NCBI GenBank assembly: GCA_951406725.2
Contig: OX597818.1
Location: 75,392,001-75,456,000 of the forward strand
Length of the DNA stretch: 64,000 bases
Reading direction: 5' to 3'
Origin: Octopus vulgaris
Taxonomy: Eukaryota
Part shown: positions 23,522 through 39,265 of the stretch, piece by piece
Position numbering within the stretch: position 1 is the first letter of the stretch
Layout of the letters: each line of letters opens with the position of its first letter
Notes under the pieces: generated by a model
Seen by the model: the letters and a program-made list of their open reading frames with translations, nothing else
Told to the model about the DNA's origin: nothing
Databases searched by the model: none
Translations under genes and position numbers: made by a program

Positions 23522-24022
23522 TTTCTCTTTTCTCTCGCTTATTATTTTGCCTCCTCTTTAGTCTGTTACTCTCTCTCCCTCACTCCTCCACCCTTGCTCA
23601 CGTGGCTCCCACGTGACTATCGGCCATCTTTCTTTCTCTCCGTTGTAGCTGGAACAAAGAAGACGTATTCTTGTCTGTCTCCTGTCCATGCTTGATTTAC
23701 GCGTTCGCTACCACAACCTCTTTTAGGCTTAACAGCCCTTCTGTTTGTATTACCAATTTTGATCCTCCGCAAAATCCCAAATTTTATTTAATATGCTTTG
23801 CGGGAGCAACTGTTTTATCGAAAACGTATATTGTTGTTAAATGCTCGAAATACGAGACTAGAAAAACAGCCAACAACTGATGAAGGGTCGTTATTTATGT
23901 TGTTTGTCTTGTTTTCCATTTGTGTCATTTGTTATTCGAAAAAACAGTTCATATTCCATGTACTCGTGCTTCGTATTTTTATGTTGTACACGTTTCATGA
24001 CGTCCTGTACCCACATATGTTT
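23522..24022 (+). mobile_element. PLE-like terminal repeat, subfamily 1, ending in (TA)n
   Basis: Shares the GTCCTGTACCCA 3' motif and the ribozyme architecture with the 36.4-kb and 38.8-kb elements. Confidence 0.6.
23761..23889 (+). ncRNA. Non-circularly permuted hammerhead ribozyme candidate, copy A (intact core, AUA site)
   Basis: GATCCT | hairpin CCGC..GCGG | IIa GAGCA | P0a CTGTTTT | IIIb CGTA-T-A^ | Ib TTGTTG | IIb TGCTC-GAAA-IIIa TACG | P0b AAAACAG | Ia CAACAA-CTGATGA | AGGGTC. Every listed pair is complementary. Confidence 0.75.
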
Positions 24023-25254
24023 ATATATATATATATATATATATATATAGATATATGTATGTACATATACGTATGTATATATGCATATATATATATATTA
24101 TTTATATTATTATATATGTGTGTTTGTGTGTTTGTCCCCCAACATCGCTTGACAACCGATGCTGGTGTGTTTACGTCCCCGTAACTTAGTGGTTCGGAAA
24201 AATAAACGATAGAATAAATACTAGGCTTACAAAGAACAAGTTTTGGAGTCGATTTGCTCGACTAGAGGTGGTGCTCCAGCATGGCCGCAGTCAAATAACT
24301 GTAACAAGTAAAAAAAAAAGAAAGTAAAAGTAATACATAGTTTATATGCAGTTCTAATCAAAAGTTATCTCTTACGCTGTCTAATTTAAAATAGATACAT
24401 TTCAAGATATATACATTTATGTATATGTATATATATATATATATATATATATATTTATGTATGTATGTATGTATGTATGTATGTATTTATATATATATAT
24501 ATATATATATATATATATATATATATATAATGTATATATATATAATAATAATATATATATATATATATATATATATATATATATATATATATATATATAT
24601 ATAATATGACAACAAAAGAATGAATGAGACCTCAATATTATGTAAATAGAGGAATTTATCTATAAATATAGGACAATATAGATAGTTGTCATAATAATGC
24701 TCAGAGTTTTAGATGCCGAATGTCTTTTAGCCCCGGCATCTGAAACTCTAAGTATTATTATGACAACTCACTGATTGTCCTATATTATATATATATATTC
24801 CACGAAAATCTTGCCGATATACGAATTTCCTAGTCTTATAGTTAAAATCATGAAACAATGTATTAGTATTTTCGGTCGAGAAAAAAATCCCAAGATGTGG
24901 AATGTGGATTGCCCCTCTTATTTCAGTTTCACTGAAGAGAGTGAAAATATACCGAGGGTTTACGAAATTTAACAGGCTAAAATCTCATAAGCCTATGGGT
25001 CATAAAAATATGAACGGACAATGTTTAAATAGAACAATATAGATGGTCAGAGATAAAAGATATGAGGAAGACAGAGAGAAAAAGATAGGGAGGAAAGGAA
25101 AAAGAAGCAAGATTGGAGTCAAGATAAATGTCCTGCTGCTAAAAGAGACATTACCAATAACCTATGGACAATTAAATGGTACATTTATACCACATACATG
25201 CACTCATGTTAATCACACTTACATGCATTTATGCACACACGCATATATAAACAT

Positions 25255-25830
25255 ATGTATAAACGGATGCAGGTTAAATCATCTCAAATTCGCTGATGAT
25301 ATTGTACTCATTTCCAGGAGCATTAAAAAATTAATAGAAATTCTCAGAGAAATAAAAGAAGAAAGTAAAAAATGTGGACTCAGAATTAACATAAATAAAA
25401 CGTAGATAATCTCCAACTATCTAATCACAGCTGGAAATGATAATGCAATAGTCGAACACGGAACCAATTCACCAATCTTGGACAAATAATATGCATAAAG
25501 GATAAAAGTCAGACCAAAGAAATTCAACGACTAATACAAATAGGATGGGCAGCCGTTGGTACATTGAGCCATATCATGAACAGTAATTTGCCTATGAGTC
25601 TAAAAATAAAGGTTTTCAGCCAGTGTGTGCTAACTATCAGTGCGCATGTACCAGAAACATGGACTACCAACAAGAGCATTGAAAATAAAATGAGAGCCCC
25701 TCAAAGGGCCATTGTAAGGAGAATGCTGAAGATTAACAAAGTGGATAAGTTGAGAAACAACAGGATAAGATTGGCAACAGGTTTAACGGATATTATCAGG
25801 AAAATTCAAATTCTGAAGTTGTCTTTTGCA
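25255..25830 (+). pseudogene. RTE-clade LINE reverse transcriptase fragment
   Basis: INGCRLNHLKFADDIVLI...GLRININKT, then LPMSLKIKVFSQCVL...ETWT...QRAIVRRML. Confidence 0.85.
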
Positions 25831-26227
25831 GAAATGCATTTAGAAATGTATTAAAAATAAAAATACAATACATATACAAATTGACAGTGTGACACCACGT
25901 CCTAAAGCAGGAGGGTGGTGGAGACCATGTAGAAGGTGGAATGAAGATTTAAGAAGAAATTATTCGGCACCCAAAAATGGATGAGGAAAACAGCAGTGAC
26001 CTGAACATGTACACGGATAATTATATATATATATATATGTGTGTGTGTGTGTGTGTGTGTGTGTGTGTGTGTGTGTGTGTGTGTGTGTATATAGTGTGTG
26101 TATATATAGATAGATAGATAGATACATACATACATAGATATATATATATATATATATATATATATAAATATATATATACATATATATATACATATATATA
26201 AATATATGCATATATACATATAGGTAC

Positions 26228-26467
26228 ATACCTATTTCTTTACTACTCACAAGGGGCTAAACATAGAGGGGACAAACAAGTACAGACAAACGGATGAAGT
26301 CGATTACATCGACCCCAGTGCGTCACTAGTACTTAATTTATCGACCCCGAAAGGATGAAAGGCAAAGTCGACCTCGGCGGAAATTGAACTCAGAACGCAG
26401 CGGCGGACGAAATTCCACTAAGCATTTCGCCCGGCGCGCTAACGTGTCTGCCAGCTCGCCGCCTTTT
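26228..26467 (-). mobile_element. tRNA-derived SINE family B (Nin/Deu-like core)
   Basis: GGCGGCGAGCTGGCAG head, GAGTTCAATTTC B box and GCCTTTCATCCTTTCGGGGTCGATAAATTAAGTAC core. Partial copies at about 18150, 28110, 43255, 45432, 47035, 53960, 56245 and 57500. Confidence 0.85.
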
Positions 26468-36765: not shown

Positions 36766-37382
36766 TATATATATTATAATTAAGGGCTAAAGAAGGTTAT
36801 ATATATATATATATATATTATTGTGTCTGGGGATAGTCATTCTCTTTTAGTGCCTTATTATTTATAATACCGGTTAAATAATCGAACTCACCAGTTCGAT
36901 TTCCACTCATTCAGTTATTATTTTTCCTAATTTTTGTTGCGTCTTGCAATCTTTTCAATAGTCGTTGACTCTGTCCGTTATCAGAGCTGCATTTTTTGTT
37001 TATTTGTTTGTGCGCATGTACATGCGTCAGTGTGCATGTGTATACATACATGTATGTATGTATTTATATATGTGCTAGTGTGTGTGTGTGTGTGTGTGCA
37101 TGTTTCTATGTGTGTGTATTTGTGTGTACCTCTGTCTCCTTGTGGGTACATGTTTGAGTGTGTCTGTGTGTATGAGTTTGTGTGACGATGTACATGCGTC
37201 TGTTATGTATGGATGTGTGTCTCCATGTGTGTCTTTGTGTGTGTGTGAAGTGTGAGTGTGTGTATATGGTCATGTGCTTCAGTCTTCATTTGTGTATGTG
37301 TGTGCTTGTCTGTCCGTATTACCTATGTACCTACCTATCTATTTATCTATCTGTTTATTTACATATCCATTTACCTACACAC

Positions 37383-37745
37383 ACACACACAAATACAAAA
37401 TGGGACAAGAACGCAAAACATCCAGACAACTAGGTGATACAAAAAGGGACAAAAAACATCCAGATAGACGATACAAAGAAAACAAGGACGAGTCATTCGA
37501 ATTTTTCTATCTTCGGTCAAGAACCAGATTATTCTCGCAATTTCGGCTGATTATTCTTGAGATTGCTCCACTCTGGCCAGCCCCAAGGAAAAACTAAGCT
37601 AAGAACATTAGATTCCTTGGAAGAAAGCATCGAATGTAGACAAAAACAAGGACGGAAAAAACGGACAATGTTACACAAATATAAATACAATAAAAAAATA
37701 TAAATACAATAAAAATAACAGGACATAACAATAGGTGTCTTTCGA
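37383..37745 (-). mobile_element. PLE-like terminal repeat, subfamily 2
   Basis: Reverse-complement homolog of about 30795-31127, abutting (TA)n. Confidence 0.65.
37494..37636 (-). ncRNA. Non-circularly permuted hammerhead candidate, copy E (core U4C, AUC site)
   Basis: Hairpin CCAAGGAA/TTCCTTGG; II GGCTG/CAGCC; P0 CCAGA/TCTGG; III GCAAT/ATTGC; I TCAAGAAT/GTTCTTGA; core CCGAAGA; closing TTTCT/AGAAA and CATTCG/CGAATG. Confidence 0.65.
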
Positions 37746-38480
37746 TATATATATATATATATATATATATATATATATATATATATATATATATATATAT
37801 ATATATATATATATATATATATATATATATATATATATATATATATACATACATATATATATATATACATATATATACATATATACATATATACATACAT
37901 ACATATACACACACACACATACATACATACATACATACATACATACATACATACATACATACATACATACATACATGTCTGTAGCTGTGCACATGTGTGT
38001 TTGTATAATCTGAGCCAAATAATCTTAAGCTGTTGAGTATAAGACGCTTCTTTGATTCATAATAGGAAAAAAAACCACTACACTGAAAGAAACTGTTTCG
38101 CATCTGCATGTCTGTTGTTGGCGATACTATCATATGTAATCGTAAAAGTGTATGTTCCTATTCACGAAGTAGTCAATTATTGCTTCAATGAAAAAATCGG
38201 ATTACCATTTCATGCATGTACTGTGAACTGGCCGCAACGTGTATTGTTACAAGGGATTACTGTTATTATTGATATATCCTATTAATCTCTCAGGGTGTAT
38301 ACTTTTTTTAATACAACTTTTAATTTGGCTAGAAAATTATTTAAATGTTACTGGTAATAATGAATACACATAAAATGCACATCCATACGTATGTGCGAAC
38401 GTATATAATATGTATATGTGTGTATGTATATATATATATATATATATATATATATATATATATATATATATATATATATA

Positions 38481-39265
38481 AAAACTTACTTGGAGAACAG
38501 AAAGGAAACGAAACGAAACAACGCGAGGGCGCTCAGTCATGCAAATATTTAATAAATAAAATATATGCATACATACATACATGTACGTACCTACATCTAC
38601 ATGTATATATACATGCATATATAAATATATATATATACGTGAGTACAGGACACCAGAAATAGACGTAGAACTCAACGAGAGACGAAAACGTAAAAACAAA
38701 CATGGAAACGGACCTTTTTAACAACGAAAAAAACAGAGTACGAGACAAACAACACAAGGAAAATTCCCCTTTATCAGCTATCCCTAGTTCGACTCCATGC
38801 GTGTTTCGAAGGTAAAGACAGAACACGACTCCTCGAACTAATCCTTCCTGCGAAAGAATTAAATAAAATTCCTTTGCAGAGGGGTAAAAACAAGGAAAGA
38901 AAAAAATGTCACAAAAACAGGACGTAAAAGTAATACAAATAAAAATGCGAATAAAAAAATAAATACAAAATAAAAATACAAATACAAAAAATACAGTACA
39001 AGAAATCAAAACAAACAGGAAAACAAACAATGAGGGCCTTTTTTTAGCATAGACGAGGAAAAATTTAAGAGCGCAGGAAAATAGCGTGTTCACTTGTAGG
39101 AGGTTGCCAGCGGTTTTTACGTTTTCGTCTCTCGTTGAGTTCTACGTCTATTTGTGGCGTCCTGTACTCACGTATATATATATTTATATATGCATGTATA
39201 TATACATGTAGATGTAGGTACGTACATATATGTATGTATGTATGCATATATTTTATTTATAATAT
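38481..39265 (-). mobile_element. PLE-like element, subfamily 1, with inverted terminal duplication
   Basis: 38550-38697 is inverted at 39113-39262. Flanked by (TA)n on both sides. Confidence 0.7.
38766..38884 (-). ncRNA. Non-circularly permuted hammerhead candidate, copy C (core G8A, GUU site)
   Basis: CCCCT | hairpin CTGC..GCAG | IIa GAAGG | P0a TAGTTCGA | IIIb CGTG-T-T^ | Ib CTGTCTTTA | IIb CCTTC-GAAA-CACG | P0b TCGAAC(TA) | Ia TAGGGATAG-CTGATAA | AGGGG. Confidence 0.7.

What the first reader, a model, noticed from the sequence alone, without database searches (positions are those of the whole stretch)
23761..38884. Family of non-circularly permuted, multiply pseudoknotted hammerhead ribozymes (5 copies, 6 co-varying helices)
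Seen: five loci (A 23761-23889 +, D 30879-31020 +, B 36416-36544 +, E 37494-37636 -, C 38766-38884 -) share one order: closing strand, hairpin, IIa, P0a, IIIb.U.H.Ib, IIb.GAAA.IIIa, P0b, Ia.CUGANGA, closing strand. Stem sequences differ but pairing is kept. Stem I: TTGTTG/CAACAA, TCGCCTTG/TAAGGCGA, CTGTCTTTA/TAGGGATAG, TCGAGT/ACTCGA, TCAAGAAT/GTTCTTGA. Stem II: GAGCA/TGCTC, GAAGG/CCTTC, GGCTG/CAGCC. Stem III: CGTAT/ATACG, TCATGT/ACGTGG, CGTGT/ACACG, GCAAT/ATTGC. Established: type I/II/III hammerheads are circular permutations of CUGANGA, GAAA, NUH. Here the order is NUH, GAAA, CUGANGA, which no circular permutation gives. Inference: the Ib-to-IIb link is short (0-5 nt), which fits stems I and II lying side by side in 3D, so this could be a self-cleaving RNA that standard HHR descriptors miss. 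I recall non-circularly permuted hammerheads being reported by the Weinberg lab (about 2023); novelty has to be judged against that work.
Basis: partly seen in the sequence, partly recalled or inferred. Interest (0 to 1): 0.95.

Follow-up and report, generated by a model that had tools for sequence, protein, structure and literature searches.

The report
Rewired hammerhead ribozyme in animal retrotransposons
These five stretches are copies of a small RNA, most likely self-cutting, whose parts are wired in an order not described before; tens of thousands of copies sit in jumping genes of this animal genome, and its relatives appear in a retrotransposon group that was thought to lack such an RNA.

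Summary
All five loci carry the six helices in the stated order. Only copies A and B keep an intact core; C, D and E are decayed copies of families whose majority core is intact. The order NUH-GAAA-CUGANGA is the published type SGC (Eckert 2023). The new part is that the CUGANGA block is split: the 5' strand of stem II lies far upstream, and a closing stem plus a hairpin join at A9/G10.1, probably as a four-way junction. The motif lies in ORF-less, Penelope-like repeat units of about 700-850 nt (about 37,000 pattern matches above control in a 2.8-Gb genome). It is also in the 3' UTR of autonomous Naiad retrotransposons and of an unrelated non-LTR element. Read by eye, 18 of 53 published Naiad 3' ends, reported as lacking canonical hammerheads, carry a non-circularly permuted hammerhead (11 split-type, 6 CSG, 1 SGC). 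Four metagenomic Naiads show the same junction with both helices closed, a likely intermediate. 5' truncations of genomic copies pile up just 3' of the predicted cut and fall about tenfold upstream, indirect evidence of cleavage in vivo. Cleavage was not tested. Verdict: new variant of a known kind.

The parts
23761..23889 (+). Ribozyme copy A, intact core. Closing 23761-66/23884-89; hairpin 23767-803; IIa 23804-08/IIb 23842-46; P0 23810-16/23863-69; IIIb 23825-29, H17 23830 (AUA); Ib 23831-36/Ia 23871-76; GAAA 23847-50; CUGAUGA 23877-83
36416..36544 (+). Ribozyme copy B, intact core, young family. Closing 36416-20/36540-44; hairpin 36421-62; IIa 36463-67/IIb 36499-503; P0 36471-77/36518-24; IIIb 36483-88, H17 36489 (GUA); Ib 36490-97/Ia 36525-32; GAAA 36504-07; CUGAAGA 36533-39
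38766..38884 (-). Ribozyme copy C, H17 38822 (GUU); core damaged (G8A); family majority intact
30879..31020 (+). Ribozyme copy D, H17 30953 (AUC); core damaged (G5A), mismatches in stem II and P0; extra outer closing helix 30879-84/31015-20
37494..37636 (-). Ribozyme copy E, H17 37561 (AUC); U4C; extra outer closing helix; family majority intact
23569..24081 (+). 5'-truncated ORF-less repeat unit of family A that holds copy A and ends in (TA)n
   Evidence: blastn to another natural copy; family structure
30434..31123 (+). Nearly whole ORF-less unit of family D/E that holds copy D
36162..36762 (.). Family B insertion: truncated unit 36381-36762 (+) with inverted pieces at 36162-36383 (-), a layout typical of Penelope-like elements
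37391..37745 (-). 5'-truncated unit of family D/E that holds copy E
38473..39271 (.). Family C insertion: unit 38473-39063 (-) with an inverted 3' piece at 39113-39271 (+)

Best explanation
A self-cleaving hammerhead ribozyme of the non-circular (SGC/CSG/GCS) ring, opened at a new place inside the CUGANGA block. SHOWN in sequence: the 5'-to-3' order is closing strand, hairpin, IIa (G10.1), P0a, IIIb-U-H-Ib, IIb (C11.1)-GAAA-IIIa, P0b, Ia-CUGANGA, closing strand. INFERRED structure: A9 runs into the closing stem, and the hairpin runs into G10.1 with 0-1 unpaired bases. Closing stem and hairpin therefore stack as one arm across the core/stem II stack (four-way junction), while P0 and the short Ib-IIb link hold stems I and II side by side. 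SHOWN context: the motif sits 130-270 nt before the fixed 3' end of ORF-less 700-850-nt units that occur as 5'-truncated, partly tandem or inverted insertions in (TA)n, and in the 3' UTR of Naiad elements. INFERRED life cycle: transcripts of partial tandems are cut after NUH. A Naiad RT/endonuclease acting in trans nicks (TA)n and copies from the fixed 3' end. Cut 3' products give copies that start at or just after the cut. Uncut or re-ligated (possibly circular) templates give copies with the whole ribozyme and the tandem junction.
For: Core intact in all five family majorities. 46,220 matches of CGAAA-N16-28-CTGANGA against 8,895 for the reversed-pattern control. Of 25 family representatives, 21 parsed fully; 17 of these beat all but at most 1 of 200 shuffles of the upstream part, and the upstream stem II scored above the downstream alternative in all 21. 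In 22 D/E-type copies aligned by MAFFT, 89.5% of cells pair and 19 of 43 pairs show a change on both sides (0/500 shuffles; slid controls at most 51.9%), with double changes in 6 of 7 helices. Truncation step: of the first 74 of 100 listed D/E copies (8,381 in all), the script put 17 starts at +1..+12 and 7 at -1..-12. By eye 4 of the 7 are +1 starts extended by TA microhomology and 1 is an internal deletion, giving 21 against 2, with 8 more in -13..-108 and 42 running further. In B/C-type families, 19 of 24 TA-flanked truncated loci start at 0..+10 and 5 at -3..-20 (read by eye). Bystander copies: 28 starts in +1..+96, 2 in -1..-72. Naiad link: 306 exact matches of the Naiad ribozyme pattern, control 0, one of them about 880 nt after broken Naiad RT pieces (L211). 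Naiad-like metagenomic loci: 9 of 78 descriptor hits, 0 in reverse-strand and shuffled controls. Published Naiad ends (by eye). All three non-circular orders cleave in vitro (PMC10085705).
Against: No cleavage assay and no usable RNA data. 42 of 74 copies run more than 108 nt past the site, and some tandems hold two whole ribozymes (L325/L326), so many templates were uncut or re-ligated. In B/C families most truncations lie at +6..+9 rather than at +1. The samples overlap. No active hammerhead with two helices at A9/G10.1 was found in the papers I could read. Only 2 of the first 30 generic-pattern loci pass the strict descriptor; most of the rest are decayed, truncated or chance matches. Descriptors were tuned on these copies, and related families share ancestry, so the covariation counts are not independent events. 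No ORF was found on families A-E: mobilisation by Naiad is inferred, not shown. 64 of 78 Naiad-like loci and 35 of 53 published 3' ends showed no such motif in the part seen.
Confidence: 0.78

Rival explanations
1. Ordinary type-SGC hammerhead: the strand after CUGANGA is itself IIa (with one extra base), and the upstream closing stem, hairpin and IIa form an alternative off-state fold that regulates cleavage.
For: In A, B, C and F the downstream strand can form a weaker stem II with two G-U pairs (score 8 against 13-15). Closing strand and IIa look like duplicates of each other in B and C. A regulated ribozyme would explain the many uncut templates.
Against: The downstream stem II scores 0 in D, E, RLE2, L229, L230 and others, and is lower than the upstream one in all 21 parses. 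P0a follows the upstream IIa, as the interaction helix follows IIa in published SGC. Four metagenomic Naiads keep both inserted helices as closed hairpins between A9 and a true IIa.
Confidence: 0.1
2. A hammerhead-derived structure that no longer cuts and serves as a recognition or priming element for the retrotransposon protein. The truncation step comes from RT pausing, a transcription start or TA microhomology.
For: Most copies keep the uncut sequence. The non-LTR copies also end about 60 nt after the ribozyme with it whole. The +1..+12 stretch of D/E is AT-rich.
Against: All catalytic bases are kept across families and phyla. The step is also seen in B/C, where Ib is GC-rich. Once RT reaches Ib, all its downstream partners have already been copied, so no helix is left to stall it (inference). 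Other Naiads seem to carry twister-like RNAs at the same place (consensus recalled, not tested).
Confidence: 0.09
3. Chance arrangement amplified by transposition.
For: Copies within a family are not independent, and the descriptor was fitted after the fact.
Against: Six helices keep pairing across unrelated sequences in two retroelement superfamilies and several phyla. Shuffle, reverse-strand and slid controls are at or near zero.
Confidence: 0.01

Closest known systems
Type-SGC hammerhead (HRIMA-1 and variants), Eckert et al. 2023, PMC10085705 (main text read, parts 1-6 of 8; supplement unreadable)
   Same: Block order S, G, C; short Ib-IIb link; a helix joining the strand before Ia to the strand after IIa; intact core.
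   Different: There IIa follows CUGANGA directly, and the authors assume block C cannot be interrupted. Here IIa is the most 5' core strand, and two helices join at A9/G10.1. Their SGC examples come from metatranscriptomes; they report none in genomes of known organisms apart from one GCS candidate.
Type-CSG hammerhead, same paper (two metagenomic sequences)
   Same: Same cyclic order and the same interaction helix; the split form is a circular permutation of this ring.
   Different: Opened after IIIa, without inserted helices. Here CSG forms appear in 6 published nematode Naiad ends (by eye) and in metagenomic Naiads, four of them with two closed hairpins at A9/G10.1.
Naiad Penelope-like elements, Craig et al. 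2021, PMC8557442 (passages; supplement metadata and search hits)
   Same: (TA)n insertion, 5' truncation, partial tandems, inverted 5' copies; the octopus Naiad consensus ends carry the same ribozyme layout.
   Different: Published as lacking canonical hammerheads, some flagged 'HHR_core' or 'HHR_half_core'. Families A-E have no ORF.
Non-LTR retrozymes (bioRxiv 10.64898/2026.07.22.740005, parts 1-3 of 5 read; Cervera and de la Pena 2020, recalled)
   Same: Non-coding, hammerhead-bearing, PLE-derived units of several hundred nt, one ribozyme per unit.
   Different: Defined and searched with type I hammerheads in tandem arrays. These units carry a non-circular form, are mostly dispersed monomers or partial dimers, and have an intron-like donor near the unit start.

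Membership tests
Hammerhead ribozyme | Core CUGANGA, GAAA, NUH | tested here: met
   Copies A and B, and all five family majorities; not met in window copies C, D, E
Hammerhead ribozyme | Stems I, II, III next to the core, with A15.1-U16.1 and G10.1-C11.1 | tested here: met
   Covarying stems; G-C at the first stem II pair in 14 of 14 chosen representatives, partly forced by the search pattern
Hammerhead ribozyme | Site-specific self-cleavage after H17 | not testable with these tools
   Indirect support only, from the truncation step
Hammerhead types I/II/III (Rfam) | Circular order C, G, S | tested here: not met
   Order is S, G, C; no Rfam hit
Type SGC (Eckert 2023) | Block order S, G, C and stem I/II interaction helix | tested here: met
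   P0 follows IIa and precedes Ia
Type SGC (Eckert 2023) | Block C uninterrupted (IIa within 1-2 nt of CUGANGA) | tested here: not met
   Upstream stem II better in 21 of 21 parses; downstream option absent in D/E
Type SGC (Eckert 2023) | Sequence match to the HRIMA-1 or variant alignments | not tested
   Supplement could not be read
Penelope-like element (non-autonomous) | 5' truncation, partial tandem and inverted copies, microsatellite targets | tested here: met
Naiad clade | ORF with N-terminal GIY-YIG and C-terminal RT | tested here: not met
   No ORF on families A-E. Met only in part by the separate family at L211 (broken RT pieces)
Naiad clade | Mobilisation by Naiad protein in trans | not testable with these tools
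   Inferred from shared ribozyme form and target; 3'-end sequence homology to the Naiad family was not tested
Non-LTR retrozyme | Type I hammerhead in each tandem unit | tested here: not met
   One ribozyme per unit, but not type I
Non-LTR retrozyme | Circular RNA intermediate | tested here: inconclusive
   Only contigs of uncertain RNA status were available

The most novel reading that the evidence does not exclude
A seventh natural hammerhead topology: active, opened inside the supposedly indivisible CUGANGA block and built on a four-way junction at A9/G10.1. It is the commonest ribozyme of this genome. Non-circularly permuted hammerheads are then the missing ribozymes of Naiad retrotransposons across ctenophores, cnidarians, nematodes, arthropods and molluscs, were also recruited by an unrelated non-LTR element, and show a stepwise path CSG, CSG plus junction, split form.
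Probability: 0.62. Interest if true: 0.9.

Novelty: new variant of a known kind. Interest (0 to 1): 0.82.

Why it matters
It would move non-circularly permuted hammerheads from rare metatranscriptome finds to one of the most abundant ribozyme forms in an animal genome. It would overturn the three-block rule that limits hammerheads to six permutations, and answer why Naiad elements seemed to thrive without a hammerhead. The step in 5' truncations is a genomic record of cleavage that makes the open question of what PLE ribozymes do directly testable. A helix-tolerant site at A9/G10.1 would also be a new place to attach aptamers in ribozyme switches. Current descriptors and Rfam models miss all of these forms.

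Tried and rejected
Rfam scans of the window and of 20 Naiad-like loci: nothing. First guess for the autonomous partner, the PLE clade with a C-terminal GIY-YIG-type end (50 loci, L131-L180): rejected. None carries the motif downstream of its ORF, and several show CUGANGA before GAAA by eye. Pfam found nothing on that ORF and gave only weak or no hits for the non-LTR fragments; the Atlas gave a zf-RVT lead (22% of one cluster, recognition below threshold). Viral contigs: no Naiad relative. Sequencing runs: no RNA holder listed; contigs of four runs laid on a family B unit showed no start, end or splice signal and are uninformative. A recalled twister pattern matched none of 78 Naiad-like 3' regions. 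Descriptor hits at window 14271 and 60835 were judged chance. In one search, 14 of the 21 parsed representatives were chosen for good parses (333 of 336 positions paired, cross-family control 0.41-0.55); the choice inflates the figure, so it is given little weight. Earlier scan notes: nothing for this genome or sequence; the phage hammerhead notes do not bear on it. Not readable: the Eckert supplement, Weinberg 2015 and Hammann 2012; these may describe hammerheads with extra helices. The truncation sample stops at 74 of the 100 listed copies.
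Full report
Observation. CUGANGA is intact only in A and B; C has G8A, D has G5A and E has U4C. A six-helix descriptor written from these copies finds four of the five and on average 0.015 hits in 200 shuffles. Rfam does not recognise them.

What the loci belong to. The window lies in a 2.8-Gb genome (G000, 227 contigs). Each copy has 1,900-3,000 first-look candidates, and the majority core of each family is intact. Copies share a fixed 3' end 130-270 nt past the ribozyme, end in (TA)n, are variably 5'-truncated, and often have a partial tandem or inverted copy upstream. Unit lengths from tandem periods are about 700-850 nt. No shared ORF was found, and a GTAAG donor-like site lies near the unit start. 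This is the anatomy of Penelope-like elements as described in PMC8557442, here without an ORF. A generic pattern with GAAA before CUGANGA has 46,220 matches against 8,895 for its reversed control; the D/E group alone has 8,381, control 0.

Relation to the published permutations. Eckert et al. 2023 (PMC10085705; main text read; supplement unreadable) define blocks C (Ia-CUGANGA-IIa), G and S and assume they cannot be interrupted. They validate types SGC and CSG and, weakly, GCS, and report no SGC or CSG in genomes of known organisms. The order here is S, G, C, and P0 is their stem I/II interaction helix, so that much is known. The difference is that IIa lies 5' of everything else in the core, directly after a hairpin, while A9 runs into a stem that closes the whole RNA. 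Of 25 representatives, 2 gave no core, 2 no upstream parse and 21 a full parse. 17 of the 21 beat all but at most 1 of 200 upstream shuffles, the other 4 were matched by 5-36 shuffles, and the upstream stem II outscored the downstream option in all 21. In a MAFFT alignment of 22 D/E-type copies, 89.5% of cells pair and 19 of 43 pairs change on both sides, above all 500 shuffles and all slid controls (at most 51.9%); the outer closing helix shows no double change. Relatedness inflates such counts. The four-way junction geometry is my inference from the 0-1 unpaired bases between helices. A 2001 paper title on an extra core nucleotide appears; that the base lies between A9 and G10.1 is recalled.

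The autonomous partner. A PLE clade with a C-terminal endonuclease was tested and rejected. Craig et al. 2021 report that Naiads lack canonical hammerheads but flag some 'core' and 'half core' cases. I read the last 420-490 nt of 53 of their 54 Naiad consensus sequences by eye. Nine show the split form clearly (Bfor with a 2-bp stem I, 3_Chem, three near-identical Acropora, 2_Movir, EuTe, Obim, Ovul). Two show it partly (Plae cut off in view, Esco imperfect). Six nematode elements are type CSG, one spider element is SGC-like, and 35 showed none in the part seen. A pattern from the octopus Naiad end has 306 exact matches in G000, control 0, which makes an octopod origin of G000 likely (inference). 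At L211 the ribozyme lies about 880 nt after broken Naiad RT pieces; its closing stem is only 3 bp. Of 105 Naiad-like loci from metagenomes and MAG contigs, 78 had at least 250 nt of 3' sequence. Descriptors found 3 CSG and 2 split forms and 4 CSG forms with two closed hairpins between A9 and IIa (L252 and L257, near-identical; L286; L295), with 0 hits in reverse-strand and shuffled controls. Five more fit by eye or at looser settings. The closed form has the same junction, and opening the loop of its first hairpin gives the window's layout: a plausible path. A compact split form also sits in the 3' UTR of a non-LTR element whose ORF end has restriction-like endonuclease motifs (L176, L337, L362; a second type at L367; the clade name HERO is recalled, and tools gave only a weak zf-RVT lead). 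That families A-E are moved by Naiad protein is inferred from the shared ribozyme form and target, not shown.

Evidence for cleavage in vivo. Reverse transcription cannot pass the 5' end of a cut RNA, so copies made from the 3' product should start at or after N1.1. Of the first 74 of 100 listed D/E copies, chosen only by sequence 3' of +12, the script placed 17 starts at +1..+12 and 7 at -1..-12. By eye, four of the seven are +1 starts extended through TA microhomology and one is an internal deletion, giving 21 against 2; 8 more lie in -13..-108 and 42 run further. That is about 0.024 against 0.002 per base. Rough binomial P values are 2.5e-12 corrected and 3e-8 uncorrected (approximate exposures). 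An overlapping TA-anchored list gives 22 of 24 loci at +1..+11, six of them exactly at +1. In the independent B/C families, 19 of 24 lie at 0..+10, mostly +6..+9. Bystander copies give 28 starts in +1..+96 and 2 in -1..-72, so the signal is a step rather than a spike. Against this, over half of the copies keep the whole ribozyme, so templates were often uncut or re-ligated, and RNA data were uninformative.

Novelty. Searches for hammerhead with non-circular permutation, type SGC, Naiad, octopus or cephalopod, Penelope with pseudoknot and permutation, additional helix or four-way junction, and HERO returned no description of this form or of permuted hammerheads in retrotransposons. The 2026 retrozyme preprint uses type I models only. 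Passages of PMC3088659, PMC10162972, PMC6155905, PMC2632901 and PMC6765202 showed no such variant. PMC13725137 mentions variants with additional helices and cites Weinberg 2015, which is not held and could pre-empt the inserted helices; subscription papers are not searched.

Verdict. A real, abundant, covarying RNA that works like a hammerhead (about 0.85 that intact members cut) and fits none of the six published block orders as defined. New variant of a known kind; interest 0.82.

Noticed in passing
PMC8557442 File S5, 3' ends of CGi, Sglo, Olur, Tgra, Pmar, 1/2_Skow, 1/2_Pfla, 1/2_Chem: A different conserved, GC-rich structured motif sits where other Naiads have a ribozyme; a second shared motif is seen in Mgal, Bpla, Mphi, Scon and Mmer. 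Both are candidate unrecognised self-cleaving RNAs.
   Followed up: no
PMC8557442 File S5, 3' ends of Mley, 1_Movir, 4_Chem: Twister-like sequences (consensus recalled) at the Naiad 3' end, suggesting that ribozyme classes are swapped at this position.
   Followed up: no
L176 (minus strand), L337, L362, L367:4560-4700: Compact split-form hammerhead in the 3' UTR of restriction-endonuclease-type non-LTR elements; copies end about 60 nt past it with the ribozyme whole. Its role at a LINE 3' end is unexplained.
   Followed up: partly
L252, L257, L286, L295: Type-CSG hammerheads with two closed hairpins between A9 and G10.1 in Naiad-like elements of unknown eukaryotes.
   Followed up: partly
L161:1487-3907: Open 806-aa Penelope-like ORF of a young family in G000. 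Its 3' UTR has CUGANGA before a GAAA-like motif with small insertions; no Pfam hit.
   Followed up: partly
window 854-3440 (-), 25043-25854 (+), 47687-53073 (-): Fragments of non-LTR retrotransposon ORFs (endonuclease-like, RT-like and restriction-endonuclease-like motifs, recognised by eye).
   Followed up: no
window 60413-60730 (+) and about 18300-18420 (-): C-terminal fragments of Penelope-like endonuclease ORFs.
   Followed up: partly
L295-L319: Naiad-like ORFs inside bacterial genome bins, very probably eukaryotic contamination of those bins.
   Followed up: no
L331, L334: A repeat family that matches GAAA...CUGANGA but did not parse into the hammerhead stems.
   Followed up: no
window 26300-26460 and 28110-28230: Copies of an abundant SINE-like repeat that also produces chance matches to the generic pattern (L322, L336).
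   Followed up: no
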